Shown: in pieces, positions 32,187-49,275 of the stretch
Layout: every line of letters starts with the position of its first letter
Numbering within the stretch: the first letter of the stretch is position 1
Assembly: GCA_036960845.1 (NCBI GenBank)
Contig: JBALWN010000010.1
Location: 10,799 to 74,798, forward strand
Source: Halopseudomonas aestusnigri
GTDB lineage: Bacteria; Pseudomonadota; Alphaproteobacteria; Kiloniellales; Kiloniellaceae
DNA length: 64,000 nt
Direction of reading: 5' to 3'
The notes under the pieces: generated by a model
Database searches by the model: none
Told to the model about the DNA's origin: nothing
What the model saw: only the letters and a program-made list of their open reading frames with translations
Translations under genes and position numbers: made by a program

Positions 32187-33110
32187 ATGCTCGTCTCAGA
32201 GTTAAAAGAACTTTTAAATATTGAATTTAGTATAGCTTTTGCGATATCAGCAGGGGTTTTTGGGCTCGTAACCTTTATAGGTAGCTTTCTTTCTAAAAGT
32301 AAAAAAGAAAGCTTATCTTTATGGCTTTTAGGATCTGTAGATAATGAGTGGATCGATAGCTTTTTAAAGATCTTTGACAATCTTTTTGGAAAAAAGTTCC
32401 TTTCAAAAAAATTTCTTCTCAGATCACTCCTATTTACTGTCATTAGTACAATACTACTCTATGTAGGGCTTAATTTATCATTCACAATATACTTTTTTAA
32501 CTTTGATACTGCTATCTTAATAAACCTAGAATTTATACTATCATACTCGATCGCCACTATAGTTATTGTAATAGTCAATGCACCCTCAGATTTCTTATCC
32601 TTGGTTCAAACACGATATTTTTTAGGTCTTTATGCTTTTACAGATAGCATTGTATTGAAAATTACAATCTTACTATTTGATAGTATAACCTCAGTATTTA
32701 TTTCGATAATCACAGGAATCATGCTTATTTTACCTTTTGGTTTTGGTTTAGATTTCGACTTTCTCGAACTGATGACCGTCATTGAAAAATTTGTAGAATC
32801 TTCAATTAAGAGTGTTGAGACTAAGGATATAAATAGTGCCTATGAAATTCATGATTCCCCAGGAATCATAATGATATTCGCGTATATGAGTACAATTTGG
32901 ATTGCCTCTGCCATTACGAATCTTTTTACAACATTTTGGTCCTGGTATTATGTTCTGTCGCTAATCACCATAAGGACGGCTAATAATAGTTTTTTAAGAC
33001 CCTGGCTTGCAATAGAAACTAAACCGACGAAAATTCTCGCGTTACTCTTATCCATTGAATCTTTTATTATAATATACTTCTGCCAGAAACTGATTAGCAC
33101 ATTCTTCTAA
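32187..33110 (+). CDS. polytopic membrane protein, unknown function (very AT-rich)
   Basis: 307 aa with at least seven hydrophobic helices. GAGGGAGGGG SD precedes the ATG. Its stop overlaps the terL stop. Confidence 0.6.
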   Translation: MLVSELKELLNIEFSIAFAISAGVFGLVTFIGSFLSKSKKESLSLWLLGSVDNEWIDSFLKIFDNLFGKKFLSKKFLLRSLLFTVISTILLYVGLNLSFTIYFFNFDTAILINLEFILSYSIATIVIVIVNAPSDFLSLVQTRYFLGLYAFTDSIVLKITILLFDSITSVFISIITGIMLILPFGFGLDFDFLELMTVIEKFVESSIKSVETKDINSAYEIHDSPGIIMIFAYMSTIWIASAITNLFTTFWSWYYVLSLITIRTANNSFLRPWLAIETKPTKILALLLSIESFIIIYFCQKLISTFF

Positions 33111-34570
33111 CCCCCCGGCTCATAATCTGAAATAGCGGTTTCCATATCTCCAAAGTCATCCTCTGACCACTTCACGATATCTTCCGCGAAAGTAAGCGCC
33201 AGAGCATCCGCCACGTCAGGTGAATGTAGCCCGCGCTTCTTCATGTCCTCTTTCTTCTCAAGCTGTAACCTGTTCTTTGCATCGAAACCGTATTCAATAG
33301 CTGTGAGATCGGTTTCAAGTTCCTGATCGTCTGTTGGTATATCGCCACCTTTGAGCCATTCACGCATTTTGCCCCACATTTCAGCACGCTTATTGAGATA
33401 GGTTTTATGGTCCTGCGCCCGTGATCCGGCGTTTACGTCAATCACGTCATGACCGAGTTGTTGCAGCCTATCCACAACACCGCCACCGACGCCTACACCA
33501 TCAACGAGAACGCCGTCGGGTCTATATTGCCTTAAGGCCTCAACAACAAAACCAACCAGTGCCATGGTATCCACCCGATATTTATTTATTTCCAAGATCT
33601 TACGACCTTGGCGAATAAGAATAACCGACTGATCATCACCGAACCTTGCGACATCAACCCCAATGACAATGGGTTGTTTAGATTGTGGAGGAAGTTCCCG
33701 GCTTTGAGCTTCGCCAACGATCTCATTTGATATAAACTGAGTAGAGCCAGCGCGTGGAAAAACACCGCGGACCCTGACCCGAACAAAATCGCTGTCTTCA
33801 CCATAGTCTTCGACCCACTGCGCCATTAATTTGGCGTTGGTGCCTTCGACCTCACGACTATCGATCTGTTGGACCTGCCAGCGGTGGCGGAGACGGTTAA
33901 AACACTCGAAAAAACGTCCCGAATTTCGCGTTGGGTTACCAAAGACAAAACGCATCGGCTCCCCATCTGTCAGCCCGCCATCACTGACCTCCCAAACTTT
34001 ATCCGGCACAGCAGAAGCCTCATCAAAGAGATAAAACGGGGTCGAATTAGCAGCGTGCAAACCAGCAAAGCTCTCTGAGTTTTCCTCACGGCAAGTCTGG
34101 GCATCACAGCGCCAACTCTCAGCGTTTTGTTTATGGACCAAAGACATGTTTCCCTTACTTGCACTATAAGAAAACCAGTGTCCGGTCAGGCACCGTTTAT
34201 GCCACTTACCCAATTCAGCCCACGTTTTGGTTCGCAGCTGATCCCCGGTATTGGATGTCACCACGCCCTTGGCAAAGGGTCGCGTCGACATGATAAAGAG
34301 GATCAACCAGGCCGACATGGCAGATTTACCAATTCCATGCCCGGATGCTGTTGCCACATCCATCGGTGCCACCGGATGAACCCCGTCAAAATCACGAGCT
34401 TTGATCAGCTCGCCAAGGCTTATTAGGTATTCTCGTTGCCAATCACGGGGGCCCAGAAAATCTTTGAGATCTCCATGGCCCCAATCAAAAGCCCAAGATA
34501 CAAACCCCAGAGGGTCTGCATAAAATTGAGAACAATCCCCGGCAATATCCAAATCTACGGCATGGGTCAT
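33107..34570 (-). CDS. terL: terminase large subunit
   Basis: Walker A-like ASGHGIGKSAMSAWLILF, and YLFDEAS as a Walker B-like segment. The C-terminal nuclease-like half has IVIGVDVARFGDDQSV. Confidence 0.85.
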   Translation of the reverse strand: MTHAVDLDIAGDCSQFYADPLGFVSWAFDWGHGDLKDFLGPRDWQREYLISLGELIKARDFDGVHPVAPMDVATASGHGIGKSAMSAWLILFIMSTRPFAKGVVTSNTGDQLRTKTWAELGKWHKRCLTGHWFSYSASKGNMSLVHKQNAESWRCDAQTCREENSESFAGLHAANSTPFYLFDEASAVPDKVWEVSDGGLTDGEPMRFVFGNPTRNSGRFFECFNRLRHRWQVQQIDSREVEGTNAKLMAQWVEDYGEDSDFVRVRVRGVFPRAGSTQFISNEIVGEAQSRELPPQSKQPIVIGVDVARFGDDQSVILIRQGRKILEINKYRVDTMALVGFVVEALRQYRPDGVLVDGVGVGGGVVDRLQQLGHDVIDVNAGSRAQDHKTYLNKRAEMWGKMREWLKGGDIPTDDQELETDLTAIEYGFDAKNRLQLEKKEDMKKRGLHSPDVADALALTFAEDIVKWSEDDFGDMETAISDYEPGG

Positions 34571-34634: not shown

Positions 34635-35084
34635 TTACTGGTTGTCTCGACGTTTGCGCCCTCTCGACAGACGTTCAATCAGTTCACTCTCGATGCCCAT
34701 TTCAACTTTTTCTTTAAAGGCCTGAACAGCCACGTGTTTACCAATAAGCTCAAGCGCCTTACCTGCACCACTGTGTTGGAATTTATATTCCCCTTCGGCA
34801 TCAGCTACAGAGCTTCGTTGCATGCATCTTTCGAAAAGTTCTACGGCTCCCTTCAAGACATAATCAGCATCAATTTTCAAACGCTCCGAACGATCGAACT
34901 GCGCCTGCTTTATCGCTTTTTGGACCGCGGGTTTATGAAACACGCGATTAGCTGTTTGTTTGGTAGAGTTCGGGCTATATCCCGCTCGGCGCGCTGCCTG
35001 TGTTGCATTGAGATCAATAAGATATTCCTCGACAAAACGCTGTTGCATACCCGTGAGGTCACTCTTTTGCTTTAAACCACCCAT
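34635..35084 (-). CDS. terS: terminase small subunit
   Basis: QQRFVEEYLIDLNATQAARRAGYSPNSTKQTANRVFHKPAVQKAI is a Terminase_2-type HTH. Lies directly upstream of terL. Confidence 0.8.
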   Translation of the reverse strand: MGGLKQKSDLTGMQQRFVEEYLIDLNATQAARRAGYSPNSTKQTANRVFHKPAVQKAIKQAQFDRSERLKIDADYVLKGAVELFERCMQRSSVADAEGEYKFQHSGAGKALELIGKHVAVQAFKEKVEMGIESELIERLSRGRKRRDNQ

Positions 35085-38281: not shown

Positions 38282-38380
38282 CCTCATTTAAAACCTGCAT
38301 TTCGATGTCAAAATCAGGATCTTTAAAAATAAATTTCTAGAGGGACTTATCCTCTGGCTGTCTTTACGCTAAAAGATACC

Positions 38381-38429
38381 CAGAGCAAGTACCAGAGTAA
38401 TGTGCCAGAGTAAGTACCAAAGTAAGTAC
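38381..38429. repeat. four tandem ~12-nt direct repeats (CAGAGTAAGTAC-like) upstream of the topoisomerase gene
   Basis: The units are cagagcaagtac, cagagtaatgtgc, cagagtaagtac and caaagtaagtac. The array ends 18 nt before the TTG start at 38447. Confidence 0.7.
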
Positions 38430-38446
38430 GGGTAAAGGGTTTCAGT

Positions 38447-41400
38447 TTGTCGACGATTATCATTACGGAAAAAACATCTCAAAAACGAGATGTTCAAGCT
38501 GCTGTCGGCAGTAATTTTGGGCGCATTTATCCAGCAGAGGGACACCTGCTTAGCCTTGAAGAACCTCAAAAAGTTCAAAGCAGTTGGGGCCGATGGTCTT
38601 TTGATTTGCTAAAGCCTGACGATTTTTACCCCACCTGCCCCTCTCCAGATGCATCACCGTCTTCCAAAGGCAAACTCCAGGCCATCGCAGAAGCTCTCAA
38701 AACTGCAACGCGTGTTATTCTCGCAACCGATTGTGATCGCGAAGGACAGTTAATTGGCGAAGAAATCCTCCGTCATTATAAGTTCAAAGGTGTCGTAGAG
38801 CGTGCCATGTTTACTGCGCAGGATGAAAAAACCCTAAGGCATGCTTTTTCAAACCTGGAGCCAAACGAAAAGTATTTCAATCTCGGTCAGGCCGCGGTTG
38901 TTCGTCAACAGTCAGATCAAGTCTATAATCTATCGCTGACCCGTGCAGCAACGGTAGCTTTAAAACAACCAGGACAGTACGGCGCTATTGGCATTGGCCG
39001 GGTCAAAACCCCAACCATGGCAATCGTCTGCATGCGCGAATTGGAGATCCTTGATTTTACGCCACAGGATTACTATCACCTTGTCGCCACAGCCACGGTT
39101 GATGGTTCACAAAGTCAAAACGAAGTCTTAAATAACGATCAAAAGCTTCAATTGGATTTACGCCACGCACCAAAAGACAAGATCCTCAACGTGGAGAAGG
39201 TTGAGGAAATTCGAGCTGCAGTCGAAGGCTTTAAAGGTCCGTTAAAAGCCGAGAAGAAGATCAAACGCACAAAGCCCCCGCGCTTACTTGATCTCCCCGA
39301 GTTACAAAAAATATGTGCCCGACGATGGGGCTGGAGCGCGGATAAAACGCTCAACATTGCTCAAGAATTATATGACGGTGAAGGTAAAAAGATTCAAACG
39401 TACCCGCGTGCTGAATCTCGTTATCTTGCAGAAAATCAGATTGAAGATATCGGAGAGATTATTCAAGGCTTGAGTAAGCTTCCCCATTACCAGTCCCCAG
39501 AATTAGCACGGGACCTCTCAAAACCAGAAGTCCGAAAGGGCAAGTCAGGTCACTTCTCTGATGCTGGGCTAAAAGGGGTTTCCCACCATGCGATCGTGCC
39601 TAATAAAAATACCATGGATAAGATCGAGGTAATCTACCCCCGGCTGACCCCAGATGAACAGCGCATGTTTGATCTCGTCGCTAGTTCCTATCTTGCTATT
39701 CTCATGCCCGATTACGTCTATGAATCCACTAATATTTCCATGGCCGTGCCGATTACTTTGCCTGAAGAAAAGCAAAAAATTCTCGACTTCAAGGTTACGG
39801 GTAACATCCCAAAAGAGCAGGGCTGGAAAGCGGTTTATACCGATGAAATGGAAAAAAAGGAAGATCACGCCGGGGAACTTCCGCCCGTACATGATGGTGA
39901 TATCGCTACCCTATTACCAGTTATAACTGATGCAAAAAAAACGAAGGCTCCGCCCCGTTATAACGAAGGTACGCTCATTGATGCCATGCAAAACTCGTGG
40001 CGGTTTGTTGATGATAAGGAACAGAAAGAGCGCTTAAAAGAAGCCAAAGGCATTGGAACGCCTGCAACGCGTGCCGCAGTGATCACAGGCTTGAAACTGC
40101 AAAATTTCCTCGCCCAGAGCGGTAAACATATTGTACCGACGGATGCCGGGCTTACACTTTACAAAACCTTAAAATCTGCAGCGCCAGAACTTGTAGATCC
40201 AGGCGTGACAGCCATGTGGGAAATGAACCTCGACGACGTACTGGAAGGAAAACAGAGCGCCCGGCAAGTTTGGGATAATATCGGTGACGATACTGCCCGT
40301 CTTATTGGTATTTTAAAGACCAATGGATCTACAGCCCCCAAGATCAATACTGGTGTAGCAATGCCAAAAGGCGCTGGTCGAGGAAAACCCACAGATAAAA
40401 TGAAAGACACGGCGAAATCCATTGCCGCCAACAAGGGTCTTAAACTACCCAAGGGATACACCTCCGACTTTAATATTTGCCGCGAATTCCTTGATGAACA
40501 CTTAGGCGGTAAAGGTCCTAGTCCCGAACGCGTTCTTGCGAATTTGGAAACCCAGCTTAGTAGCATGATTAAAGGTTTGGGCGCCAAAGCTGCCAAACAG
40601 CTGGTCGAGGCTTATGGTACTGATACCCTAAAAATAATAGAGCAAAATCCTGAAAAACTAGAGACCCTGGATGGCCTGCCAAAAGGAAAGCTGAAACTTC
40701 TTCAGGAGTGGATAACAGAAGATAAATGCAGTCGAGAAATTCAAGATTTCCTTCACGCTAATGACGTTGATCCTGCACGTGCTTTTCGGTTCTATCAGGC
40801 ATATGGCCAGGATACGCTCACAAAATTAAAAGAAAATCCTTATTGCATAGTACGAGACATCCGTGGCTTGCCTTTTAGTATAGCTGACAATCTTGCCCAC
40901 CGTTTAGACTTTCAAGCTGATAGCTTATCCCGTGCCCGGGCTGCTCTCTTTCATGCAATGACACAAGCAGCGGATTACCGGGAAAAAGATAGTCTCTTAA
41001 ATATGCTCAACAAGCGCCTGGGCCTTTCTCCAGAACTGTTGGCAGAAGCATTAGAAGCTGAATTGGAAGATAAACAACTCCACATAGTGAAGCGCAAAAA
41101 CTCAGAAGGATTAACTGAAGAACAGTTGATTACACGCCCTCTCTGGCAAGCTGAGAGCAAAGCTTTTAAGCGTTTAAAATCCATGCTCGACACCACGCCA
41201 TCATGGGCCAGTATCGAAGCTGACAAAGCCATCACATGGGTCACCAGCCGCGAGGGCATTGCTCTCACACAACAGCACACTCAGACGGTTACAAGACTTT
41301 TCCAAAACCAGTTATCTGTCCTTACAGGTATTGCAAACACTGGTAAAATTCAAACTCTCCACGCCTTTATAAAAATCCTTAGTGCTAAGGGTGTAAAGAT

Positions 41401-42457
41401 ATCGCTAACCACGCCCTCTTCCAGTGGTGCAAAAGAACTCTCTAAAGCAACAGAACTAGAAGCAACATCCCTCACTAAATTGTTGGAATACAATAGTAAG
41501 AATAGCAGTTACAAACGAACGTCTCGCAAACCACTTGATTGCCAACTTCTAATCATTACCCAAGCTCAACTTGTTGACCGTCCCCTACTGCTCGCAGCCA
41601 TTGAAGCATTACCAGAAGATGCTGGATTAATTCTATTGGATGATTTCAAGCGCAGCCCAATGCCAGGAACAGGGCGGGTACTTAAAGACATCATCAAGGC
41701 ACTTGATATTGCCCCTCTTAACCTGACAGAACTATCCCAGGAAACAGCTGACAATAAACTCCACAAAAATTGCCAACTCCTTGCCAAAAAACAAGATCTC
41801 GATTATTCAGCCGATACAGAAGGCAAAGCTTCAGGGGGGAAAGGCAGCTTTTATTTTGTCGAGGCCAATGACACCCCTGATCTCCAGCGTAAGCTCGCCG
41901 AAATTGCCAAGAACAGAATTCCCAAAACGTTTAAACTTGATGCTATAGGTGATATTCAAGTCATCAGCCTGGCAAATGGCAACCTCAACCCAAGAGCCTT
42001 AATCCCGAACCTCCAACAACTCTTGAATACATCACAAGACGGTCTTTATGCCCAGCGTTTTGATTGTTGTTACCGAACGGGGGACAAAGTAATCCTCGGT
42101 GAAAACGACCCTGAACGCGATATACTCACAGGTGAAATTGGGATTATCAAAGACATTTCTCGAGGCGCTCTATTACCGGGAGATCAAAACGCCCGTAAAA
42201 TAGATACAGGCCAAATAACCATTGATTTTTCTGGTAAAAACCATGAGTTCCATTTTGATGAGTTAGATCGTTTGTCCCTCGCCTATGCCCTGCCAGCAAC
42301 ACGATGTATGGCACAACAATGTAAAGCTGTGATTGTCGTTCTGCCCTTCGAACCAATAAAACCATCAAGCCACCAAGATTTCTATGATGCGTTATCTTCA
42401 TCACAACAGCTGGCCATTATAATCGGCCCCAAATCATCTCTGGAATTAATGACTTAA
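38447..42457 (+). CDS. DNA topoisomerase III (type IA) fused to a C-terminal RecD2-like SF1 helicase-fold domain with degenerate ATPase motifs
   Basis: Toprim (IIITEKTSQ; ATDCDREGQ), active-site IQTYPRAES (Tyr codon 39401-39403) and GIGTPATRA. From about aa 700 come HhH-like repeats, then LTGIANTGKIQT, LLIITQAQLVD, an SH3-like GDKVILGEND...GEIGII, and AYALPATRCMAQQCKAVIVV. Confidence 0.85.
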   Translation: MSTIIITEKTSQKRDVQAAVGSNFGRIYPAEGHLLSLEEPQKVQSSWGRWSFDLLKPDDFYPTCPSPDASPSSKGKLQAIAEALKTATRVILATDCDREGQLIGEEILRHYKFKGVVERAMFTAQDEKTLRHAFSNLEPNEKYFNLGQAAVVRQQSDQVYNLSLTRAATVALKQPGQYGAIGIGRVKTPTMAIVCMRELEILDFTPQDYYHLVATATVDGSQSQNEVLNNDQKLQLDLRHAPKDKILNVEKVEEIRAAVEGFKGPLKAEKKIKRTKPPRLLDLPELQKICARRWGWSADKTLNIAQELYDGEGKKIQTYPRAESRYLAENQIEDIGEIIQGLSKLPHYQSPELARDLSKPEVRKGKSGHFSDAGLKGVSHHAIVPNKNTMDKIEVIYPRLTPDEQRMFDLVASSYLAILMPDYVYESTNISMAVPITLPEEKQKILDFKVTGNIPKEQGWKAVYTDEMEKKEDHAGELPPVHDGDIATLLPVITDAKKTKAPPRYNEGTLIDAMQNSWRFVDDKEQKERLKEAKGIGTPATRAAVITGLKLQNFLAQSGKHIVPTDAGLTLYKTLKSAAPELVDPGVTAMWEMNLDDVLEGKQSARQVWDNIGDDTARLIGILKTNGSTAPKINTGVAMPKGAGRGKPTDKMKDTAKSIAANKGLKLPKGYTSDFNICREFLDEHLGGKGPSPERVLANLETQLSSMIKGLGAKAAKQLVEAYGTDTLKIIEQNPEKLETLDGLPKGKLKLLQEWITEDKCSREIQDFLHANDVDPARAFRFYQAYGQDTLTKLKENPYCIVRDIRGLPFSIADNLAHRLDFQADSLSRARAALFHAMTQAADYREKDSLLNMLNKRLGLSPELLAEALEAELEDKQLHIVKRKNSEGLTEEQLITRPLWQAESKAFKRLKSMLDTTPSWASIEADKAITWVTSREGIALTQQHTQTVTRLFQNQLSVLTGIANTGKIQTLHAFIKILSAKGVKISLTTPSSSGAKELSKATELEATSLTKLLEYNSKNSSYKRTSRKPLDCQLLIITQAQLVDRPLLLAAIEALPEDAGLILLDDFKRSPMPGTGRVLKDIIKALDIAPLNLTELSQETADNKLHKNCQLLAKKQDLDYSADTEGKASGGKGSFYFVEANDTPDLQRKLAEIAKNRIPKTFKLDAIGDIQVISLANGNLNPRALIPNLQQLLNTSQDGLYAQRFDCCYRTGDKVILGENDPERDILTGEIGIIKDISRGALLPGDQNARKIDTGQITIDFSGKNHEFHFDELDRLSLAYALPATRCMAQQCKAVIVVLPFEPIKPSSHQDFYDALSSSQQLAIIIGPKSSLELMT

Positions 42458-42645: not shown

Positions 42646-44562
42646 TTAGTTAGTTAAAACTGGTGACAAGATACGTTCTATAGGAAATACCAGAGTTACG
42701 CGCGTCCCTAGTTTTGGTTGGCTTTCAATTGTAATGGTTCCATCATGTATTTCCATCATTCGCTTGGCTAAAGGAAGACCGAGGCCCGTGCCTTTCGTAT
42801 TGTCATCATAAACATTCTTAACCATGCCAAAAGGCGTAAGGGCAACAACCACTCCAGCCTCATCCATCCCAATACCAGTATCCGTAACGGCGAGGCAAAA
42901 CCGTCCTTTGTGATCAAAACGTTTTGAAATACGAATGATGCCATTTTCTGGGGTGAACTTAACTGCGTTGCTCAAGAGATTAACAACAACTTGCTTCACC
43001 AGACGATCATCCGCAAATAATCTCGGGCCATCATCGCCAACATTATTTTCAATAACGACAACAGACTCCTTCGCCTGTAAGCGTACCATTTGAATGGATT
43101 CATTCAGCACCTCTGGAAAATCAAATTCCTTTTCATTGATTTGAAGCTGTCCGGCTTCAATAGATGACACATCAAGAATGTCATTGATAATTTCAAGTAA
43201 GTGCTGACCTGATTGTGTAATATCACTACAATATTCCTGATACTTATCATTACCAAGTGGCCCAAATGTTTGCAGTTTCATTATTTGCGAAAACCCAATG
43301 ATCGCGTTCAAAGGAGTTCGTAATTCGTGGCTCATAGATGCTAAAAAATTACTCTTGGCTTCATTGGAAGATTCAGCCTGTTGTCTTAAATCAGAGAGAG
43401 TATCAACTTGACTTGAAACAGCTTTAAAAATAAACCAAATCAAGATCAAAAAAATCATGACACCGAAGACACTGATCAAAGAAACAGTAATCCAGGTTGC
43501 AGATAAATTTTCAGCTGCTTTTAATCTGATTTCTTTTTGCCGAGCTTGTTCCATTATTACAAACTCGGTCCAGTCCTGATCTATTTTGATCATTGCCCTC
43601 TGGAGGTCATCTCGTAGTTGCCCGTTAAGCTGTTGTATTTCAATATGATCTCTGATCAGTGTATACAACCCACCCGGCTGAACATGTATCGTTTGGTGTT
43701 GTTCATCAATAATATACCCCTCACCAAACAAGTATTTATTTAACGTTTTGATCTCAGTTAGGAAGACTTTTTTTACTGAAACAGACCCCGTCTTTAGAGT
43801 TGCCATTCCGCGTTCAAGACGGTCTAAACTTGGCTTGAGCTTGTTGTCTTTTATATCAGATAAGTGGTCATAATTAGGGTCACCAGAAAGGACTTCGACT
43901 AACCGCTGAATATCTGCAAGTTCAGTTAATAGAGTTCCTACATTTTCCCTCAACAGCTCTTTGTGTTGCTCTATTATTCTTTTTGAAAGATCAACCCGAT
44001 CATTCCCCTTCGCTCGTTGATACCTCTTGATATCCAAGGTCATCTGCAAACGATTTTGACCCACAATCCCATTGATAAGCGTGTGAATTATAGTCAACTG
44101 ACGACGGACTTTATTGAGAGTAATGTCCTTACCTAAATTGTCTTCAATTCTATCATTTCTCCCTCGCCAATTTTCAGACTTAACCAGAAGGCTTAATAGT
44201 TGATCCGCTTCAACAATGAGAGAATTTAGTAGAGGTTTAGTATCTTCTTGGGTGTTTTTTTTCAATATCCCTAATGATAGCTGTAGATTTTGGAGAGCTC
44301 TGACCCCTTTAATAGGATTGTTTTTCTCACCCCTATCGAGTATGAGCCTGATCTCAGTCGTTCCGATACGGATCAAAAGATTTAACTTAGCGACTTGTTC
44401 TGCAAATATTTTTTCGTCGACAGCTAAACGGGCAGATTGATCTCGTTGATTTATCCCGCCCCACCCCAACGAGAGGTTAACCACCAGAGACGTCAAAAGG
44501 CTGAGACCGATCAAAGCCCACAACATTCTTCTAATACGCCTGACCTCCTGGTGAGCTTCCAT
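42646..44562 (-). CDS. sensor histidine kinase (two TM, large extracytoplasmic region, HisKA + HATPase_c)
   Basis: H-box FLASMSHELRTPLNAIIGFSQIM; N/G boxes NLLSNAVKFTPENG, DTGIGMDE, GTGLGLPLAKRMMEIHDG. Confidence 0.85.
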   Translation of the reverse strand: MEAHQEVRRIRRMLWALIGLSLLTSLVVNLSLGWGGINQRDQSARLAVDEKIFAEQVAKLNLLIRIGTTEIRLILDRGEKNNPIKGVRALQNLQLSLGILKKNTQEDTKPLLNSLIVEADQLLSLLVKSENWRGRNDRIEDNLGKDITLNKVRRQLTIIHTLINGIVGQNRLQMTLDIKRYQRAKGNDRVDLSKRIIEQHKELLRENVGTLLTELADIQRLVEVLSGDPNYDHLSDIKDNKLKPSLDRLERGMATLKTGSVSVKKVFLTEIKTLNKYLFGEGYIIDEQHQTIHVQPGGLYTLIRDHIEIQQLNGQLRDDLQRAMIKIDQDWTEFVIMEQARQKEIRLKAAENLSATWITVSLISVFGVMIFLILIWFIFKAVSSQVDTLSDLRQQAESSNEAKSNFLASMSHELRTPLNAIIGFSQIMKLQTFGPLGNDKYQEYCSDITQSGQHLLEIINDILDVSSIEAGQLQINEKEFDFPEVLNESIQMVRLQAKESVVVIENNVGDDGPRLFADDRLVKQVVVNLLSNAVKFTPENGIIRISKRFDHKGRFCLAVTDTGIGMDEAGVVVALTPFGMVKNVYDDNTKGTGLGLPLAKRMMEIHDGTITIESQPKLGTRVTLVFPIERILSPVLTN

Positions 44563-45786
44563 CTATTCCCCTATTTGCCTCAACAAAGATGAGATATCGG
44601 CCCAATGAAAGGGAACGAATTTCCCATTACGTAATACGGTTGACCAAACTCGATGGCTGGCTTGATGATTATCTTCATCAAAGCGAAGTTGATGGCCTGA
44701 ACCTATGGAAAATTCTTTCAAACCTTCCAACGCATCAATAATATTTTCTCTGCTAGGGGCGCCTTCTATACGATATAATGCCTTTATAAGAATCTCTGCA
44801 GCAATATATCCCTCAAGGCTGCCAAAAGAAGATCTCCTTCCTTTACCATAGGATAAGATATCTTTTTGATAACGATCCACAATGGGTAAAGAATTATCTT
44901 CGGGGTAGGGAACAACTTGGGTCACAATGACCCCATCATACTTATCGCCGAGCTCCCGGGCGAGTGGCTCTGCCCCAACAAAAGAAACATTTACGAACAA
45001 AGCTTCAAGACCGGCATCCCGGGCCAACTTTATAAACCGTGCAGAAGGCGCATATGCCCCAACCATGATTACGGCACGAGGCGTAGGATCTGCCAGCAAT
45101 ATATCTGCTAAGGCATTTTCCACAACCAAGGTATTGCGTTCATAACGTGTATGGGTAATTAAAGATTCAGATTCTAGACCAAATTTCTTTAAGGCGCTAA
45201 TACCACCAATGTAGCCTGCATCTCCATATCCATCTCGTTGAGTAAAAAATGCAATTTCCTCTGGCTTTAATTTTGCGTGGTTGATTAAGGCATCCACCAT
45301 AGCAGAAGTTTCTTCTGCGTAACTCGCCCGATAATTAATAACATAACGATCAGGAGGCGTTTTTCGAAGAACACCTGCGCCTGTGTAGGGAGCGAATAAT
45401 AACGTTTTTTCTTCGTTGGCAATCGGGATCGCCGAAATGGCCGTTGGCGTCCCTACGTTGCCAATTATCGCCAGCACATCTTCCTGTTCGATAAGGTCGC
45501 GCATATTGGGGACTGTTTGCTCTGGTTCATACCCATCATCCCAAGCAAGCAATCGGATAAGGCGTCCTTTTACCCCACCTTTAGCATTTTCTCGTGCTAT
45601 TCTTATACCAACCCCCAACCGCATGTTTTTCCCTAACTCAGCAGCCGGCCCGGTTAAAGCCGTAGACATACCGAGAAGGACCTCATCATCATGCGTATCT
45701 GCACTTATCTCAGACACAGAAAACAATACGGCAAAGATAGAGAATATGGTTGAAAAATAGATATTCGAGTACCGGTTAATCGGCAT
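44563..45786 (-). CDS. periplasmic binding protein, LivK/branched-chain amino-acid-type (PBP type I)
   Basis: Signal peptide, then LLGMSTALTGPAAELGKNMRLGV...GGVKGRLIRLLAWDDGYEP. Its TAG stop directly abuts the ATG of the kinase gene (TAGATG). Confidence 0.8.
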   Translation of the reverse strand: MPINRYSNIYFSTIFSIFAVLFSVSEISADTHDDEVLLGMSTALTGPAAELGKNMRLGVGIRIARENAKGGVKGRLIRLLAWDDGYEPEQTVPNMRDLIEQEDVLAIIGNVGTPTAISAIPIANEEKTLLFAPYTGAGVLRKTPPDRYVINYRASYAEETSAMVDALINHAKLKPEEIAFFTQRDGYGDAGYIGGISALKKFGLESESLITHTRYERNTLVVENALADILLADPTPRAVIMVGAYAPSARFIKLARDAGLEALFVNVSFVGAEPLARELGDKYDGVIVTQVVPYPEDNSLPIVDRYQKDILSYGKGRRSSFGSLEGYIAAEILIKALYRIEGAPSRENIIDALEGLKEFSIGSGHQLRFDEDNHQASHRVWSTVLRNGKFVPFHWADISSLLRQIGE

Positions 45787-45947
45787 ATTTAGTATCCAAT
45801 TTATTATCAGGATTTTGATAATACCTCCCTTTAATAATATTACGGTCACATGCCTTTAAAGGTCGTTAATTCTCGCCAATTTGAAATATTATAGTCTTAA
45901 TGGCTAACATTTTTCCTGGAAAGTTACTCTAACTGACCAACTAGGAA

Positions 45948-46760
45948 TTATTCCATCGACCTAACCAGTTCCGTATTTCGAGTTAAGAAATCATCTCTCA
46001 AATTTACGATCTGTCCTCCATTCACCAATTCACCGAAGACTTGATTGAATTGATTTAGGAGCTCTTCTGATCGATGAGACTGTCGGGGGAAAATAATATA
46101 GCCATAATCAGTGCTAATGGGTTTTCTCAAACCAATGATCTCATCAGATCGTTCACCAAGAACTTCTTTTCTAAATATATCGGCAACAAAAATATCTTCA
46201 ACAAAGAAATCTGCCCGCCCATTTAGTATCATCAGCCAACAACTTTTTATATGAGGCGGACGAATACGTTTAATTTCTCCAGCTGAATGCATTTCTTCGA
46301 GTTCACTTAGGCTACCATAGTGATATGGAATACACTCAGTTAACCCCTTAAGATCAAGCATTTTATTAAAAACAATCTTAGAATCACCCCGTACATAAAC
46401 TTTGCTCTTCCACTCAACAATTGCATCACTATAAAAGAACTCTTTTGTACGTTCTTCTGTCTTCAAATAGGGATAAGTGGCGACATACTTGTTTTGTTTT
46501 GTCAGGACATATCCCCGTTTCCAAGGTAAATAATCAACTGCCAAATCGTAATCCATTTTAGAGAATACCAATTTCACAATTTCAGAGACAACGCCCCCGT
46601 TTAGGATTTGATTTGAAGTAAAGGGTGGGTATTCACCTGTTGCCAACTTTAATTCCTCGGCACTTACTTTAGACAGCATAAACACTGAAGACAGAATAGC
46701 GATAAATCCTGCTATAAATATTTCATAAAAATATCGCACGCGAAGCTTTCTCCTCGTCAC
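45948..46760 (-). CDS. family-3 solute-binding-protein-like periplasmic protein
   Basis: Signal anchor, then LKLATGEYPPFTSNQ...DYLPWKRGY...ATYPYLKTEERTKEFFYSD. Divergent from the kinase gene at 47017. Confidence 0.6.
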   Translation of the reverse strand: MTRRKLRVRYFYEIFIAGFIAILSSVFMLSKVSAEELKLATGEYPPFTSNQILNGGVVSEIVKLVFSKMDYDLAVDYLPWKRGYVLTKQNKYVATYPYLKTEERTKEFFYSDAIVEWKSKVYVRGDSKIVFNKMLDLKGLTECIPYHYGSLSELEEMHSAGEIKRIRPPHIKSCWLMILNGRADFFVEDIFVADIFRKEVLGERSDEIIGLRKPISTDYGYIIFPRQSHRSEELLNQFNQVFGELVNGGQIVNLRDDFLTRNTELVRSME

Positions 46761-47016
46761 ATTTTGAGAAGCCTTATTAGGCCTTAAGCAATTTTATTAT
46801 TATAATATATTTTAAGTTAATTATTCATCTCTCCAATCTGAGTATTCAGCCCCTCGCCCTGACGGCTATCATAGATTGATCATTAACACCTTAACAACTT
46901 TATGGTTGTATTATTGCCATTAACTGGCTTTCCGTAGGGGTGAGACAAGTAAACATGTTTGGCCTCAAATAAGTCGACCAAGAAAAAGACTGCCAAGGAA
47001 AAGAGGGGTAATCTGA

Positions 47017-49275
47017 ATGGATAGATTCACGCGCCAAACAGCATCAAAAAGAATAAGATTACACCACGTTCTTTTCATCGTTTTCTCTTTGATATCCATT
47101 ATACCAGTTTTATTTCTCGCTGTTTGGGCGCAAAAATCTGCAATTGAAAACGAATACTCAGCAATAAAAGATAAACACCTTCTTCTTGCCAATAACGTTT
47201 CTGGTGCTTTATCTCGGTATGCCTCTGATGCAGAACTAATTTTCAGAATTTCAACCGAAAGCTTAATGAACAATCAATCTATCGAACAAATTCCTAATCT
47301 TCTCAAAATTGTACAATTTGGTCATATATGTATTACAGATAAAACGGGCCGAATTTACAACATGGCAACAATTAAACCAGGAATGTTCCCACGTTTTAAG
47401 AATGGCCACTTACCCCCTAAAACTCTGAAAAAGCTTTCTGATACAATAGCCAAAGCAAAAGCAAATCCCAGCCATGTTATTTTTTCGAGAGCATTTCTTA
47501 ATTCCTTTGGAAAACCGACGCTTTACCTCGTTAAGGCAGAGGCTGACGGTTCCATGGCATTTGGAAGTTTAAAGACGGATTTTATTGTTAATATAGGCAA
47601 TAAAATATCATTTGGAAAACTTGGGCATGCAGCAATTGTTGATCAAGCAGGGCAAATACTTGCCCATCCCAATGCCAAGTGGCGTTCAGAAATAAAAGAT
47701 CTTTCCGCAGTCAAACCCGTAAAATTAATGATGGCGAAGCAAACAGGTGTAACCACCTTTTACTCCCCTTCTTTAAAAGCTGATATGATTGCAGGTTATA
47801 CAGTCCTCCCCAAAATTGGTTGGGGCGTTATGGTTCCCCAACCAATATCCGAATTGGAAGATCGCGCTAGCGGTGTTCATCTCGTCGTTTTAATAATATC
47901 AGCGGTAGGTATCGCTGCGGCGGCCCTAATGAGTTGGTGGCTCGCGCGTTACCTATCAATGCCAATGCAAGCCGTGGTCAAAGCAGCTGGGGATGTTTCT
48001 GCTGGTCGTCTCAATGCTAGAATCCCCTCCTTTCATTCCTTTGTACTAAGAGAAGCAGGTGATCTTGTTCACTCTTTTAACTCCATGGTCGATGAATTGG
48101 AAAAAGTTGAATGTCGATTAAGAACTAGCGAAGAACGTTTTCGCGAATTTGCCTCCACAGCATCAGACTGGTTATGGGAGACAGATCCTCATGGACGAAT
48201 AATATGGGAATCAGAAAGCCGAGACTTCGGGTATCGGGGAAAAAGATTTACTGAAATTCAAGGAAAAACCCGCGAACAACTTGCAGGCGATCTCATGTCC
48301 GAGAAAGAGTGGCAACCCTATAGAGACGCATTAGTAAAGCACTTGGAGATCAACGATTTTGAATACAGGTACTTAAGCTCCCAAGGAGAGACTTTTCATG
48401 CTCTTATCAATGGAACTCCTTTGTTTGATGAAGCTGGTAAATACCTTGGACACAGAGGTGCAGCATCAGACATTACCAAAAGAAAAAATATCGAAGCTGC
48501 ATTGGAAAAATCCAAAGAATGCGCAGAGAAAGCAAATAGATCCAAATCAGAGTTTTTAGCAAATATGAGTCACGACTTACGCACTCCTTTAAACGCCATT
48601 ATCGGTTTCAGTGACATTATGCGGCGTAAAACATTTGGGGGCCTTGGGCACCCAAAGTATGATGAATATGCAAGTGATATCCACAACAGCGGCACTCTCC
48701 TTGTTAGCCTGATAAATGATATTCTAGATCTTTCAAAAATCGAAGCCGGTAAATACGAACTCGCAGAAGAAACCTTAAAGTTGGAATCCTTGATAAAAAT
48801 CTCATTTCGACAATTGCAGGTTATGGCAGAAGATACCGATCAGAAATTAGTATTGGAAATTCCGAAAAACTTTCCCTCTCTACTGGGTGACAAGCGAGCC
48901 CTCATTCAAATACTCAACAATCTAATTTCCAATGCTATAAAATATACCCATGGCCCAGGAACAGTCCATGTTAGTACGAAGGTGAATGAAGAGAACTGTA
49001 TTATCCTCTCTGTAAGAGACAACGGCATGGGGATGTCTGAAGATGATTTAGAACATGCTCTAGAAGCCTTTGAGCAGACAAATCGTTTACATCCCCGTCG
49101 GCACGAAGGCACTGGGCTCGGTTTATATCTCTGCATTAGTTTTATGAAATTATTTGGCGGTTCTTTAGAAATAGAAAGTGAAGTTGGCAAAGGCACCACA
49201 GTCACTTTAAAATTCCCCAAAAGCAGAACTCTTAGCTTTGAAGAAGTCGACCAAGAACCAATTAGCTTTATTTAA
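47017..49275 (+). CDS. sensor histidine kinase (Cache-like periplasmic domain, HAMP, PAS, HisKA, HATPase_c)
   Basis: HAMP: MPMQAVVKAAGDVSAGRLNARIP. PAS: EERFREFASTASDWLWETDPHGRI. H-box: FLANMSHDLRTPLNAIIGFSDIM. G-boxes are present. Confidence 0.85.
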   Translation: MDRFTRQTASKRIRLHHVLFIVFSLISIIPVLFLAVWAQKSAIENEYSAIKDKHLLLANNVSGALSRYASDAELIFRISTESLMNNQSIEQIPNLLKIVQFGHICITDKTGRIYNMATIKPGMFPRFKNGHLPPKTLKKLSDTIAKAKANPSHVIFSRAFLNSFGKPTLYLVKAEADGSMAFGSLKTDFIVNIGNKISFGKLGHAAIVDQAGQILAHPNAKWRSEIKDLSAVKPVKLMMAKQTGVTTFYSPSLKADMIAGYTVLPKIGWGVMVPQPISELEDRASGVHLVVLIISAVGIAAAALMSWWLARYLSMPMQAVVKAAGDVSAGRLNARIPSFHSFVLREAGDLVHSFNSMVDELEKVECRLRTSEERFREFASTASDWLWETDPHGRIIWESESRDFGYRGKRFTEIQGKTREQLAGDLMSEKEWQPYRDALVKHLEINDFEYRYLSSQGETFHALINGTPLFDEAGKYLGHRGAASDITKRKNIEAALEKSKECAEKANRSKSEFLANMSHDLRTPLNAIIGFSDIMRRKTFGGLGHPKYDEYASDIHNSGTLLVSLINDILDLSKIEAGKYELAEETLKLESLIKISFRQLQVMAEDTDQKLVLEIPKNFPSLLGDKRALIQILNNLISNAIKYTHGPGTVHVSTKVNEENCIILSVRDNGMGMSEDDLEHALEAFEQTNRLHPRRHEGTGLGLYLCISFMKLFGGSLEIESEVGKGTTVTLKFPKSRTLSFEEVDQEPISFI

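What the first reader, a model, noticed from the sequence alone, without database searches (positions are those of the whole stretch)
38447..42457. Topoisomerase III fused to a RecD2-like helicase domain in which every ATPase motif is degenerate
One uninterrupted 1336-aa ORF.

- aa 1 to ~630: a complete type IA topoisomerase, with the Toprim Glu, the DxD motif and the catalytic Tyr in IQTYPRAES.
- aa ~645-690 (KPTDKMKDTAKSIAANKGLKLPKGYTSDFNICREFLDEH): resembles, from memory, the tail of plasmid/ICE-borne TopB proteins.
- aa ~700-1336: the HhH-repeat + 1A/SH3/2A layout of RecD2-type SF1 helicases, but the catalytic positions are replaced.

The replacements are:
- Walker A GxxxxGK(T/S) reads GIANTGKI (41327-41350).
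- Walker B LLIVDE reads LLIITQ (Thr-Gln at 41558-41563).
- Motif III reads DDFKRSPMPGTG.
- Motif VI HKSQGSE reads ATRCMAQQ.

A topoisomerase IA covalently joined to a helicase fold recalls reverse gyrase. Here, however, the helicase fold is SF1, sits at the C-terminus and is apparently ATPase-dead. That suggests a DNA-binding or clamp role rather than a motor.
Basis: partly seen in the sequence, partly recalled or inferred. Interest (0 to 1): 0.65.

Follow-up and report, generated by a model that had tools for sequence, protein, structure and literature searches.

The report
Topoisomerase III with dead RecD2 helicase tail
A marine alphaproteobacterium encodes a normal-looking DNA topoisomerase III permanently joined to a helicase-shaped domain whose ATP-burning residues are all lost; the fusion is conserved in a whole group of related bacteria and seems undescribed.

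Summary
ORF 38447-42457 (+) encodes 1336 aa. It consists of a catalytically intact type IA topoisomerase III, a conserved 40-aa two-helix tail, and a RecD2-derived module (HhH repeats, 1A, 2A, SH3). The module folds confidently (pLDDT 88) and its best structural match is D. radiodurans RecD2.

The fusion is not an assembly artefact. It occurs in at least 24 protein clusters and 11 species genomes (Kiloniella, Sneathiella, Aestuariispira, Terasakiella). These form one clade in a topoisomerase tree. The gene always sits in ordinary chromosomal surroundings, not an ICE, plasmid or defence island.

The ATPase is dead in every member:
- Walker B Glu is kept in 0/24.
- Motif VI Arg is kept in 1/24.
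- Motif III Gln is kept in 2/24.
- Walker A Lys is kept in 13/24.

The module is nevertheless under purifying selection (dN/dS about 0.1, against 0.02 for the topoisomerase). Its HhH region is the part that best keeps RecD2-conserved residues.

- Walker A keeps its Gly and Lys.
- "Motif VI" is really motif V; the true motif VI (YDALSSSQ) is also lost.

The most likely role is a flexibly tethered, ATP-independent DNA-binding or targeting module, analogous to the vestigial helicase of relaxase TraI. It is not reverse-gyrase-like. I rate it a new variant of a known kind, of moderate to high interest.

The parts
38447..42457 (+). Whole gene: topoisomerase III fused to a RecD2-derived pseudo-helicase, 1336 aa, TTG start
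   Evidence: ORF list and translation. Full-length homologues at 48-83% identity in 24 clusters. TTG start conserved in relatives.
38337..38446 (+). 5' region: conserved hairpin/promoter-like stretch (38337-38375), four roughly 12-nt tandem repeats CCAGAG(Y)AAGTA (38379-38430), and AAGGG ribosome-binding site (38436-38440)
   Evidence: Sequence. Terminator-like hairpin in the scan. The hairpin/TTTACGCTAAAAGA block is conserved in L006, L007 and L008, and the repeat copy number varies from 0-1 to 4. Function was not tested.
38453..38782 (+). Toprim domain (aa 3-112) with Glu8 (ITEKT) and D95-C-D97-R-E99
   Evidence: Pfam PF01751, E 1.4e-13. Residues read directly. Invariant in 24 homologues.
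38870..40270 (+). Topoisomerase IA core (aa 142-608), with catalytic Tyr319 (39401-39403, KIQTYPRAE) and the region aligned to the E. coli topo III decatenation loop (39974-40075)
   Evidence: Pfam PF01131, E 8e-85. Best PDB sequence match is E. coli topoisomerase III 1d6m, E 3e-55, with the loop region aligned without gaps. Residues read directly.
40379..40504 (+). Conserved two-helix tail motif RGKPTDKMKDTAKSIAANKGLKLPKGYTSDFNICREFLDEHL (aa 645-686)
   Evidence: Mean conservation 0.80 in the fused family. It is the C-terminal end of unfused Azospirillum topo III. Found in 25 plasmid records, mostly under topoisomerase genes. No Pfam hit. Two helices flanked by linkers of pLDDT below 50.
40556..40996 (+). 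HhH repeat region of the RecD2-derived module (aa 704-850); first hairpin MIKGLGAKAAKQL, RecD2 signature NPYCIVRDIRGLPFSIAD
   Evidence: Pfam HHH_5 and HHH_RecD2. RecD2-conserved positions are kept at a mean of 0.76, the highest of any part of the module. It holds 6 of the module's 14 best conserved 15-aa windows.
41267..41791 (+). RecA-like domain 1A remnant (aa 941-1115) with dead Walker A (41327-41350, GIANTGKI), motif Ia (PSSSGAKE), Walker B (41543-41563, QLLIITQ) and motif III (41639-41674, DDFKRSPMPGTG); conserved hairpin and basic loop LEYNSKNSSYKRTSRKPLD (41483-41539)
   Evidence: Pfam AAA_19/AAA_30. Alignment to RecD2 3e1s. Per-sequence motif table. Conservation profile. Coordinates checked.
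41882..42454 (+). Domain 2A remnant with inserted SH3 (2B) domain (42008-42160); dead motif V (42296-42319, ATRCMAQQ) and dead motif VI (42383-42406, YDALSSSQ)
   Evidence: Pfam SH3_13. Alignment to RecD2. AF2 model and Foldseek match to 3gp8. Motif retention table.

Best explanation
The gene encodes the chromosomal topoisomerase III of a Kiloniella-like marine alphaproteobacterium.

**Shown**
- The enzyme half is intact: Toprim Glu and DxD, the catalytic Tyr, and a region aligned without gaps to the E. coli topo III decatenation loop.
- It carries the family's normal two-helix tail.
- Directly after the tail, an almost complete RecD2 SF1B helicase has been appended. It lacks only RecD2's N-terminal OB domain and last ~15 residues.
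- In every known member of the fused clade the residues that bind and hydrolyse ATP are replaced.
- The fold is kept and remains under purifying selection.
- Structure modelling gives low confidence for the linkers on either side of the tail motif and no confident fixed arrangement of the two halves.

**Inferred**
- The module no longer translocates or unwinds.
- It works as an ATP-independent nucleic-acid-binding or targeting appendage. Its well-preserved HhH hairpins would hold DNA. Its RecA-like/SH3 body, with a conserved basic hairpin loop, may hold a single strand or a single-strand/duplex junction.
- This would keep topo III at gaps, forks or hemicatenane-type substrates where it needs single-stranded DNA, and raise its local concentration or processivity.
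- The same job is done by the ssDNA-binding C-terminal domains of other type IA enzymes, and by partners such as RecQ/SSB or RMI1.
- The closest mechanistic precedent is the vestigial RecD2-like helicase domain of relaxase TraI, which serves as an ssDNA-binding domain next to a tyrosine transesterase.
- The two halves are probably joined by flexible linkers rather than packed rigidly.
For: **Domain calls and motif alignment:**

**The fusion is real and old**
- 24 full-length clusters and 11 species loci in GTDB genomes.
- The fused clade is monophyletic in a topo-domain NJ tree: 73-92% identity within it, 54-57% to unfused relatives.

**Context**
- Ordinary chromosomal and variable neighbours; no conserved partner gene.
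- No full defence-system match.

**Dead ATPase in all members**
- Walker B Glu 0/24, motif VI Arg 1/24, motif III Gln 2/24, motif V Gln 3/24, Walker A Lys 13/24.
- Helicase-motif positions keep the RecD2 residue at a mean of 0.24, against 0.58 for other RecD2-conserved positions and 0.76 in the HhH region.
- No Walker A elsewhere in the protein.

**Fold retained**
- AF2 pLDDT 87.9, pTM 0.85.
- Foldseek best hits are RecD2 3gp8/3gpl/3e1s (E 6e-32, TM 0.65/0.75). TraI 5n8o is also hit.

**Selection**
- dN/dS is about 0.10-0.14 for the module and 0.02-0.03 for the topoisomerase. dS is near saturation.

**Conserved patches in the module**
- First HhH, the hairpin/basic loop before the Walker B strand, aa 1149-1163, the SH3 domain, and aa 1270-1284.

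**Flexible tether**
- Linkers at aa 629-645 and 687-692 have pLDDT below 50, and pTM is 0.53 for aa 137-1336.

**Precedent**
Against: - No DNA-binding assay exists, and no structure with DNA could be modelled here.
- The canonical ssDNA-contact motifs of SF1 helicases (Ia, TxHR, III, V) are also largely replaced, so binding along the classical track may be lost.
- The module as a whole is slightly acidic (pI 6.45). Only the 1A part (pI 9.5) and the tail (pI 9.8) are basic.
- The low pTM of the long model may partly reflect the truncated Toprim domain and a shallow 20-sequence alignment.
- A protein-protein docking or autoregulatory role would fit the same data.
Confidence: 0.6

Rival explanations
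1. The dead helicase module is mainly a protein-protein or intramolecular regulatory scaffold. It would dock a partner (SSB, replisome, an active helicase such as RecQ) or gate the topoisomerase's own opening and closing, rather than bind DNA itself.
For: - The ssDNA-contact motifs are eroded along with the ATP motifs.
- The module is not basic overall.
- It is conserved under purifying selection.
- One metagenomic relative (P0025) carries a RecQ N-terminus at the same position, hinting that this position hosts helicase-type partners.
- From general knowledge, topo III works with RecQ/SSB in E. coli and with RMI1 in eukaryotes.
Against: - The HhH hairpins, a classical non-specific DNA-binding element, are the part that best keeps RecD2-conserved residues.
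- No conserved neighbouring gene suggests a partner.
- No confident docking of the two halves in the long model.
- P0025 is a single 2.9-kb contig and may be chimeric.
Confidence: 0.2
2. The module still binds a nucleotide without hydrolysing it, and acts as an ATP/ADP-sensing switch for the topoisomerase, at least in Kiloniella.
For: - Kiloniella proteins keep G..(G/N)TGK. Six of them combine it with a Walker B Asp followed, in five, by Gln (LLIIDQ), the classic hydrolysis-dead but binding-competent pattern. One of the six (P0009) has GLHETGKT.
Against: - The window's own protein has Thr-Gln in place of Asp-Glu and Ile in place of the Mg-binding Ser/Thr.
- 11 of 24 members have lost the Lys altogether. 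Positions around the pocket (motifs III, V, VI) vary freely between lineages, which argues against a conserved ligand site.
Confidence: 0.07
3. The module is a functionless relic of a once active helicase fusion, drifting towards loss.
For: - It evolves about 4 times faster in dN than the topoisomerase half.
- Catalytic motifs differ between lineages as if unconstrained.
- The most divergent member (P0024) has lost most Pfam matches.
Against: - About 640 aa are kept in frame without stops in all 24 clusters across several genera.
- dN/dS is about 0.1.
- The fold prediction is confident.
- There are discrete highly conserved patches.
Confidence: 0.06
4. The module is still an active motor that uses non-canonical residues, making the protein a reverse-gyrase-like ATP-driven topoisomerase.
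For: - Only the overall layout: a type IA topoisomerase covalently joined to a two-RecA-domain fold.
Against: - Walker B Asp-Glu, the motif III Gln, motif V and the motif VI Arg are all missing in the window protein.
- No alternative Walker A exists.
- The RecD2 curated cut-off is not reached.
- The reverse gyrase model matches only the topoisomerase part, at 59.6 bits against a 471.7 cut-off.
Confidence: 0.03
5. The long ORF is an artefact: two genes joined by a sequencing or assembly error.
For: - None found.
Against: - The same uninterrupted architecture is seen in isolate genomes (K. majae, K. spongiae, K. litopenaei, K. laminariae, Aestuariispira insulae, Terasakiella pusilla) and in many metagenome assemblies.
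- The junction region is itself highly conserved.
Confidence: 0.01

Closest known systems
Bacterial DNA topoisomerase III (TopB; E. coli structures 1d6m/1i7d)
   Same: - Toprim plus topoisomerase IA core, catalytic Tyr, acidic triad, and a region aligned without gaps to the decatenation loop.
- It is the best PDB sequence match (E 3e-55).
- The nearest unfused relatives are ~745-aa Azospirillum topo III proteins, 54% identical and ending in the same tail motif.
   Different: - Carries about 640 extra residues of RecD2-derived fold after the normal C-terminus.
- Scores below the NCBIfam TopB cut-offs (414.9 against 597, and 383.8 against 515.75).
RecD2 SF1B helicase (D. radiodurans RecD2 3e1s/3gp8; B. 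subtilis YrrC type)
   Same: - HhH repeats, 1A, 2A and SH3 (2B) domains in the same order.
- TIGR01448 aligned over nearly its full length.
- Best structural match.
- 26-35% identity to stand-alone RecD2 proteins.
   Different: - No N-terminal OB domain and no last ~15 residues.
- Motifs I, Ia, II, III, V and VI are all replaced.
- Below the curated cut-off (345 against 500).
- It therefore cannot be a RecD2-type motor.
Vestigial helicase domain of F/R1 relaxase TraI
   Same: - A RecD2-like SF1B fold that has lost its ATPase and sits in one polypeptide with a tyrosine-based DNA strand-transferase.
- In TraI it acts as an ssDNA-binding domain (PMC5422253).
- TraI 5n8o is among the structural hits.
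   Different: - TraI also keeps a second, active helicase domain, and its catalytic domain is an HUH relaxase, not a topoisomerase.
- No specific sequence relationship (TIGR02760, 14.6 bits).
- TraI is plasmid-borne, whereas this gene is chromosomal.
Reverse gyrase
   Same: - A type IA topoisomerase covalently linked to a helicase-like two-RecA-domain module.
   Different: - Reverse gyrase has an N-terminal, ATP-hydrolysing SF2 module that packs against the topoisomerase and drives positive supercoiling (general knowledge).
- Here the module is C-terminal, SF1B, ATPase-dead and apparently flexibly tethered.
RecC and AddB (inactivated SF1 helicase folds in RecBCD/AddAB)
   Same: - Helicase folds that lost ATPase motifs but were kept as DNA-handling scaffolds (general knowledge, not tested here).
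   Different: - These are separate subunits of helicase-nuclease complexes, of SF1A type, with no topoisomerase. No specific similarity was detected here.
DpdF of the Dpd (7-deazaguanine) defence system
   Same: - The topoisomerase half matches positions 63-665 of the 1499-position PADLOC DpdF model (E 3e-55).
- DpdF is listed among defence proteins with an SF1/SF2 helicase domain (PMC12278908).
- DpdF may therefore be another N-terminal topo-IA-like plus C-terminal helicase protein.
   Different: - Only 40% of the DpdF model is matched.
- The RecD2-like half does not align to it.
- No dpd genes are nearby.
- DpdF's own architecture was not verified here.
RecQ-topoisomerase III and BLM-TOP3A-RMI 'dissolvasome' partnerships
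   Same: - Topo III acting together with a helicase-type partner that supplies or holds single-stranded DNA (general knowledge).
- One relative (P0025) even has a RecQ N-terminus fused at the same site.
   Different: - Those partners are separate proteins with active SF2 motors. Here the partner is fused, of SF1B origin and inactive.

Membership tests
Type IA DNA topoisomerase, topoisomerase III subfamily | Toprim domain with conserved Glu and DxD(xE) acidic cluster | tested here: met
   Pfam Toprim, E 1.4e-13. ITEKT and TDCDREG read directly. Invariant in 24 homologues.
Type IA DNA topoisomerase, topoisomerase III subfamily | Full topoisomerase IA core with catalytic Tyr in the (T/S)YPR context | tested here: met
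   PF01131 covers 2-409 of 411 positions, 285.7 bits against a cut-off of 35.1. Tyr319 aligns with E. coli topo III ITYPRSD.
Type IA DNA topoisomerase, topoisomerase III subfamily | Topo III-type decatenation loop; closer to TopB than to TopA | tested here: met
   E. coli topo III chains are the best PDB hits (E 3e-55, against 7e-23 or weaker for topo I). The loop region FVDDKEQKERLKEAKG aligns without gaps to FVQDKDLKKILRATDG. The loop's residue range in E. coli is recalled from memory.
Type IA DNA topoisomerase, topoisomerase III subfamily | Reaches the curated NCBIfam TopB cut-off | tested here: not met
   NF005829: 414.9 bits against 597. TIGR01056: 383.8 against 515.75. This is a divergent alphaproteobacterial subfamily.
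Type IA DNA topoisomerase, topoisomerase III subfamily | Relaxation of negative supercoils and decatenation through a 5'-phosphotyrosine intermediate | not testable with these tools
   Needs enzyme assays.
RecD2 SF1B helicase | Domain order HhH repeats, 1A, 2A with inserted SH3 (2B) | tested here: met
   Pfam HHH_5, HHH_RecD2, AAA_19/AAA_30 and SH3_13. AF2 model pLDDT 87.9. Foldseek 3gp8 E 6e-32.
RecD2 SF1B helicase | N-terminal OB-fold domain (OB_YrrC) | tested here: not met
   Absent from the query but present in stand-alone relatives. RecD2-conserved N-terminal columns are gaps in all fused proteins.
RecD2 SF1B helicase | Walker A GxxxxGK(T/S) | tested here: not met
   GIANTGKI: Lys kept, Thr replaced by Ile, GPG replaced by IAN. 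No other Walker A in the protein. The Lys is kept in 13/24 relatives and the Ser/Thr in 6/24.
RecD2 SF1B helicase | Walker B hhhhDE | tested here: not met
   LLIITQ. Asp kept in 8/24 and Glu in 0/24 fused proteins.
RecD2 SF1B helicase | Motifs III (GDxxQLP), V (HKxQGSE) and VI (YTAxTR) | tested here: not met
   DDFKRSP, ATRCMAQQ and YDALSSSQ. Motif III Gln 2/24, motif V Gln 3/24, motif VI Arg 1/24.
RecD2 SF1B helicase | Reaches the curated TIGR01448 cut-off | tested here: not met
   345 bits against 500.
RecD2 SF1B helicase | ATP-dependent 5'-3' translocation and unwinding | not testable with these tools
   Needs biochemistry. Sequence predicts none.
Reverse gyrase | N-terminal ATP-hydrolysing SF2 helicase-like module followed by a C-terminal topoisomerase IA | tested here: not met
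   The order is reversed, the module is of SF1B type and its motifs are dead. TIGR01054 matches only the topoisomerase part, 59.6 bits against 471.7.
Reverse gyrase | ATP-dependent positive supercoiling | not testable with these tools
   Needs biochemistry.
TraI-type relaxase with vestigial helicase (functional analogue only) | Sequence membership in the TraI relaxase/helicase family | tested here: not met
   TIGR02760: 14.6 bits against 929.85. TIGR02768: 22.2 against 590.45.
TraI-type relaxase with vestigial helicase (functional analogue only) | ATPase-dead RecD2-like fold that binds ssDNA | tested here: inconclusive
   The dead RecD2-like fold is shown. ssDNA binding is not testable here, and the ssDNA motifs are partly eroded.
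DpdF (Dpd defence system) | Match over the whole DpdF model, with dpd genes alongside | tested here: not met
   Only model positions 63-665 of 1499 are matched. Neighbours are solute-binding proteins and histidine kinases.

The most novel reading that the evidence does not exclude
The fused module may be a new kind of built-in substrate selector or gate regulator for a type IA topoisomerase. A helicase fold stripped of its motor would read DNA structure (for example a 5' single-strand/duplex junction, as RecD2 would) and license strand passage only there. That would make a single-polypeptide, ATP-independent counterpart of the helicase-topoisomerase III 'dissolvasome'. The RecQ-fused relative (P0025), if real, would show that this topo III lineage swaps helicase-type modules at one docking point behind the conserved tail motif.
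Probability: 0.15. Interest if true: 0.8.

Novelty: new variant of a known kind. Interest (0 to 1): 0.58.

Why it matters
- Type IA topoisomerases need single-stranded DNA. They usually obtain it through accessory C-terminal domains or helicase partners such as RecQ, SSB, RMI1, or the helicase module of reverse gyrase.
- Here a lineage has hard-wired a complete helicase fold onto topo III, discarded its motor and kept it under selection for a long time.
- That gives a natural experiment on what a helicase fold contributes to a topoisomerase apart from ATP-driven unwinding.
- It adds a chromosomal example to the short list of 'vestigial helicase' DNA-handling modules (TraI, RecC, AddB).
- It flags about two dozen database entries, named only 'DNA topoisomerase' or 'AAA family ATPase' by their sources, as a distinct architecture.
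- No paper describing it was found in the searchable library.

Tried and rejected
1. **ICE, plasmid or defence-island context.** Rejected. Neighbours in the window and in seven related genomes are solute-binding proteins, histidine kinases, transporters and the like. They differ between genera. PADLOC gives only partial, domain-level matches.
2. **Pfam family for the tail motif** (for example a topoisomerase C-terminal repeat). No hit even at E = 10.
3. **A degenerate RecD2-like gene next to unfused topo III in Azospirillum, as the source of the fusion.** Not there.
4. **More topo III-RecQ fusions like P0025.** The last word-indexed protein search returned only short RecQ fragments. The metagenome scan returned ordinary RecQ genes, and the two loci with the longest matches (L065, L068) have no topoisomerase upstream. 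No recQ lies downstream of the fused gene in the Sneathiella-type relatives checked.
5. **Read-level checks.** No public run holds the window's junction. The P0025 contig could not be submitted.
6. **The C-terminal-only word-indexed search** gave just 5 RecD2 hits. The exhaustive representative search was needed. It showed one fused representative plus two truncated fused fragments (P0128, P0159; identified), both with dead motifs.
7. **Long structure model (aa 137-1336).** It gave no confident inter-domain arrangement (pTM 0.53).
8. **Literature on DpdF architecture.** Nothing specific found.

Full report

Yes. The window has a single open frame at 38447-42457 on the + strand, 1336 codons long, with a TTG start. 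An AAGGG ribosome-binding site lies 7 nt upstream. The same TTG start and N-terminus (LSTIIITEK) are found in the closest relatives.

Pfam finds six domains:
- Toprim, aa 3-112.
- Topoisom_bac, aa 142-608, E 8e-85, nearly the full model.
- HHH_5, aa 708-749.
- HHH_RecD2, aa 760-842, E 1.5e-23.
- AAA_19/AAA_30, aa 944-1112.
- SH3_13, aa 1188-1238.

NCBIfam aligns the RecD2 equivalog model TIGR01448 over aa 704-1335 (model positions 79-696 of 713, E 8e-103). The score of 345 bits is below the 500-bit cut-off.

**2. The topoisomerase half**

The best solved relatives by sequence are the E. coli topoisomerase III chains (1d6m, E 3e-55). Topo I chains score far lower.

- Glu8, Asp95-x-Asp97-x-Glu99 and Tyr319 (KIQTYPRAE, aligned to E. 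coli ITYPRSD) are present. They are invariant in 24 homologues.
- The stretch aligned to the E. coli decatenation loop region (FVDDKEQKERLKEAKG against FVQDKDLKKILRATDG) is present without gaps. That the loop occupies this stretch in E. coli is my recollection of the literature.
- The protein falls below the curated TopB cut-offs. It belongs to a divergent alphaproteobacterial topo III subfamily whose nearest unfused members are ~745-aa Azospirillum proteins, 54% identical.

**3. The tail**

Residues 645-686 (RGKPTDKMKDTAKSIAANKGLKLPKGYTSDFNICREFLDEHL) are among the most conserved parts of the protein.

- In unfused Azospirillum-type topo III the same motif is the very C-terminus. The helicase-like module was therefore added directly behind a complete topo III.
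tblastn finds the motif (45-58% identity) in 25 plasmid records, under genes annotated as DNA topoisomerase in most of the listed ones. One example is megaplasmid pMPPla107.
- No Pfam family covers it.
- In the long structure model it forms two helices flanked by linkers with pLDDT below 50.
- Its function is unknown.

**4. The helicase-like half**

phmmer against PDB sequences aligns it to D. radiodurans RecD2 (3e1s, E 5e-20). The motifs line up as follows:

| Motif | RecD2 | This protein |
|---|---|---|
| Walker A | GGPGTGKS | GIANTGKI |
| Ia | CAPTGKAA | TTPSSSGA |
| Walker B | LLIVDEVS | LLIITQAQ |
| III | VGDTDQLPPV | LDDFKRSPMP |
| V | TVHRAQGSE | PATRCMAQQ |
| VI | YTALTRAR | YDALSSSQ |

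Walker A keeps its first Gly and its Lys. The string labelled motif VI is motif V, and the true motif VI is also lost.

No canonical Walker A exists anywhere else in the protein. The only hhhhD[DE] string is the motif III strand.

An AlphaFold2 model of aa 691-1336, built on a 25-sequence alignment, is confident (pLDDT 87.9, pTM 0.85). Its best Foldseek matches are:
- RecD2 3gp8, 3gpl and 3e1s (E 6e-32 to 1.5e-28; TM 0.65/0.75).
- Then RecD of RecBCD, Dda and Pif1.
- Also TraI 5n8o.

Compared with stand-alone RecD2 (for example P0126, which has fully canonical motifs), the module lacks the N-terminal OB_YrrC domain and the last ~15 residues.

**5. Is the fusion real, and how widespread is it?**

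A search of 5.8 billion proteins returns 24 full-length clusters with the same architecture, at 48-83% identity. They come from Kiloniella species, Sneathiella, Aestuariispira insulae and Terasakiella pusilla. Many sit on contigs of 0.2-2.3 Mb.

A scan of one genome per GTDB species finds 11 loci in the same genera, plus an uncultured Rhodospirillales MAG at 85% identity in the module.

- Most source names are just 'DNA topoisomerase'; one reads 'AAA family ATPase'.
- In an NJ tree of the topoisomerase domain the fused proteins form one clade on a long stem. Identity is 73-92% within the clade and 54-57% to unfused relatives. This suggests a single old fusion event.
- An assembly artefact is excluded.

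Gene neighbourhoods are ordinary and change between genera:
- Solute-binding proteins and histidine kinases in Kiloniella-type genomes.
- Other housekeeping genes elsewhere.
- No conserved partner gene and no mobile-element or defence context.

PADLOC gives only domain-level hits. The topoisomerase half matches positions 63-665 of the 1499-position DpdF model, and the module weakly matches RecD-type models.

**6. Dead everywhere, yet kept**

Motif strings were extracted for all 24 fused proteins:

| Catalytic residue | Kept in |
|---|---|
| Walker B Glu | 0/24 |
| Walker B Asp | 8/24 |
| Walker A Lys | 13/24 |
| Walker A Ser/Thr | 6/24 |
| Motif III Gln | 2/24 |
| Motif V Gln | 3/24 |
| Motif VI Arg | 1/24 |

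- No protein has more than four of the eight key residues.
- Two further truncated fused fragments from the exhaustive representative search (P0128, P0159) are also degenerate.
- The replacements differ between lineages, as expected for unconstrained positions.

Against 100 stand-alone RecD2 sequences, retention of the RecD2 residue at positions conserved at 85% or more differs by region:
- Mean 0.24 at helicase-motif positions.
- Mean 0.58 at other conserved positions.
- Mean 0.76 in the HhH region.

The module is nevertheless under purifying selection. Against the two closest relatives, dN/dS is about 0.10-0.14 for the module and 0.02-0.03 for the topoisomerase. dS is close to saturation, so these values are approximate.

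Conservation is concentrated in several patches:
- The first HhH hairpin (MIKGLGAKAAKQL) and other windows in the HhH region.
- The short hairpin and basic loop before the Walker B strand (YKRTSRKPLDCQLLII).
- aa 1149-1163.
- The SH3 domain (YRTGDKVIL).
- aa 1270-1284.

**7. How the two halves relate**

pLDDT is below 50 at aa 629-645 and 687-692, that is, on both sides of the tail motif.

This suggests a beads-on-a-string arrangement rather than a rigid reverse-gyrase-like body. Two caveats apply: the Toprim domain was truncated, and the alignment is shallow.

**8. Most likely mechanism**

What is shown:
- An intact topo III.
- A RecD2 fold without ATPase residues.
- Long-term retention of that fold under selection.
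- The HhH region as the part that best keeps RecD2-conserved residues.
- Low-confidence linkers around the tail motif.

What is inferred:
- The module is an ATP-independent DNA-binding or targeting appendage.
- It holds the enzyme on substrates that expose single-stranded DNA next to duplex, such as gaps, forks, precatenanes and hemicatenanes.
- Functionally it replaces or supplements the ssDNA-binding C-terminal domains or helicase/SSB partners that other type IA enzymes use.

The closest precedent is relaxase TraI. [quoted passage not shown] RecC and AddB are further examples of retained dead helicase folds (general knowledge).

Points against:
- The classical ssDNA-contact motifs (Ia, TxHR, III, V) are eroded too.
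- The module is not basic overall; only domain 1A (pI 9.5) and the tail (pI 9.8) are.
- A protein-docking or gate-regulating role therefore remains a serious rival.
- A nucleotide-sensing role is conceivable only for a Kiloniella subgroup that keeps GTGK. Six of these proteins also keep the Walker B Asp, followed by Gln in five of them. It does not fit the window's own protein.

**9. Comparison with the known**

- It is a member of the type IA / topo III family.
- It is not a RecD2 helicase. The defining motifs and the curated cut-off were tested and not met. It is RecD2-derived.
- It does not work like reverse gyrase.
- I found no paper describing a topo III-RecD2 fusion. The searchable library is incomplete.
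- DpdF of the Dpd defence system may be another protein with an N-terminal topo-IA-like part and a C-terminal helicase. Its architecture was not verified, and the present gene is not a DpdF.

**10. Verdict**

This is a new variant of a known kind: a topo III with a previously undescribed, conserved, ATPase-dead SF1B accessory module. Interest is moderate to high.

The most novel reading still open is a built-in structure-reading selector or gate regulator, possibly part of a modular helicase-docking position suggested by the RecQ-fused relative P0025. I give it a probability of about 0.15.

Noticed in passing
L019 (JGI 3300022707, contig Ga0247389_10095969) 478-2868; protein P0025: This is a 796-aa protein cut off by the contig end. 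Its topo III is 70% identical to the window's, has the same tail motif, and nests inside the RecD2-fused clade. After '...NPLTAIKNVHSSG' it continues into the N-terminus of a RecQ-type helicase with an intact-looking Walker A (MSTGSGKSLCYQIP). It is either a genuine swap of the helicase module or a chimeric contig.
   Followed up: partly
window 5500-35100, mostly minus strand: A podovirus-like structural gene set:
- Small terminase 34635-35084.
- Large terminase 33107-34570.
- Portal 21679-23370.
- Protease/scaffold-like 20596-21411.
- Major capsid 19574-20593.
- Tail proteins 16413-18197, 10352-11275 and 6210-10355.

The terminase pair alone also sits next to the topoisomerase locus in three other Kiloniella-type genomes (L003, L006, L007). 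This suggests an old prophage remnant or a recurrent insertion site.
   Followed up: partly
window 38337-38446: Upstream of the gene lies a hairpin (CTAGAGGGACTTATCCTCTGG) and a TTTACGCTAAAAGA block, both conserved in relatives. They are followed by about four tandem 12-nt units (CCAGAGCAAGTA-like). The copy number is 4 in the window, 2 in L008 and 0-1 in L006/L007. These could be promoter or operator elements, or slippage-prone repeats.
   Followed up: partly
window 40379-40504; L100 (pMPPla107) 4001-4120: The two-helix tail motif occurs in 25 plasmid records (Microvirga, Halomonas, Campylobacter, Methylobacterium, Bradyrhizobium, Pseudomonas and others), mostly under genes annotated as topoisomerase. 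It is also the C-terminus of chromosomal Azospirillum topo III. It matches no Pfam family, so it may be an uncurated mini-domain.
   Followed up: partly
L001 4904-7084; L002 4854-6794: A DbpA-type DEAD-box helicase gene lies one or two genes upstream of the fused topoisomerase gene in both Aestuariispira insulae and Terasakiella pusilla, but not in Kiloniella. This could be residual synteny or coincidence.
   Followed up: no
proteins P0011, P0012 (Kiloniella laminariae), 1475 and 1491 aa: These two fused proteins are about 140-155 aa longer than the rest. The position and nature of the extra segment were not examined.
   Followed up: no
proteins P0160 (1819 aa) and P0138 (1114 aa) from the representative search: P0160 is a RecD2 with canonical domains preceded by about 1100 residues without Pfam matches. 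P0138 is a RecD2 split by a LAGLIDADG (intein-type) insertion between the HhH region and the ATPase domain.
   Followed up: no
window 42646-51913: Downstream of the gene is a signalling cluster: histidine kinase 42646-44562, Peripla_BP_6 binding protein 44563-45849, SBP_bac_3 protein 45948-46760, HAMP/PAS histidine kinase 47017-49275, and response-regulator-DUF3369-GGDEF-EAL protein 49550-51913. It is syntenic in other Kiloniella genomes.
   Followed up: no
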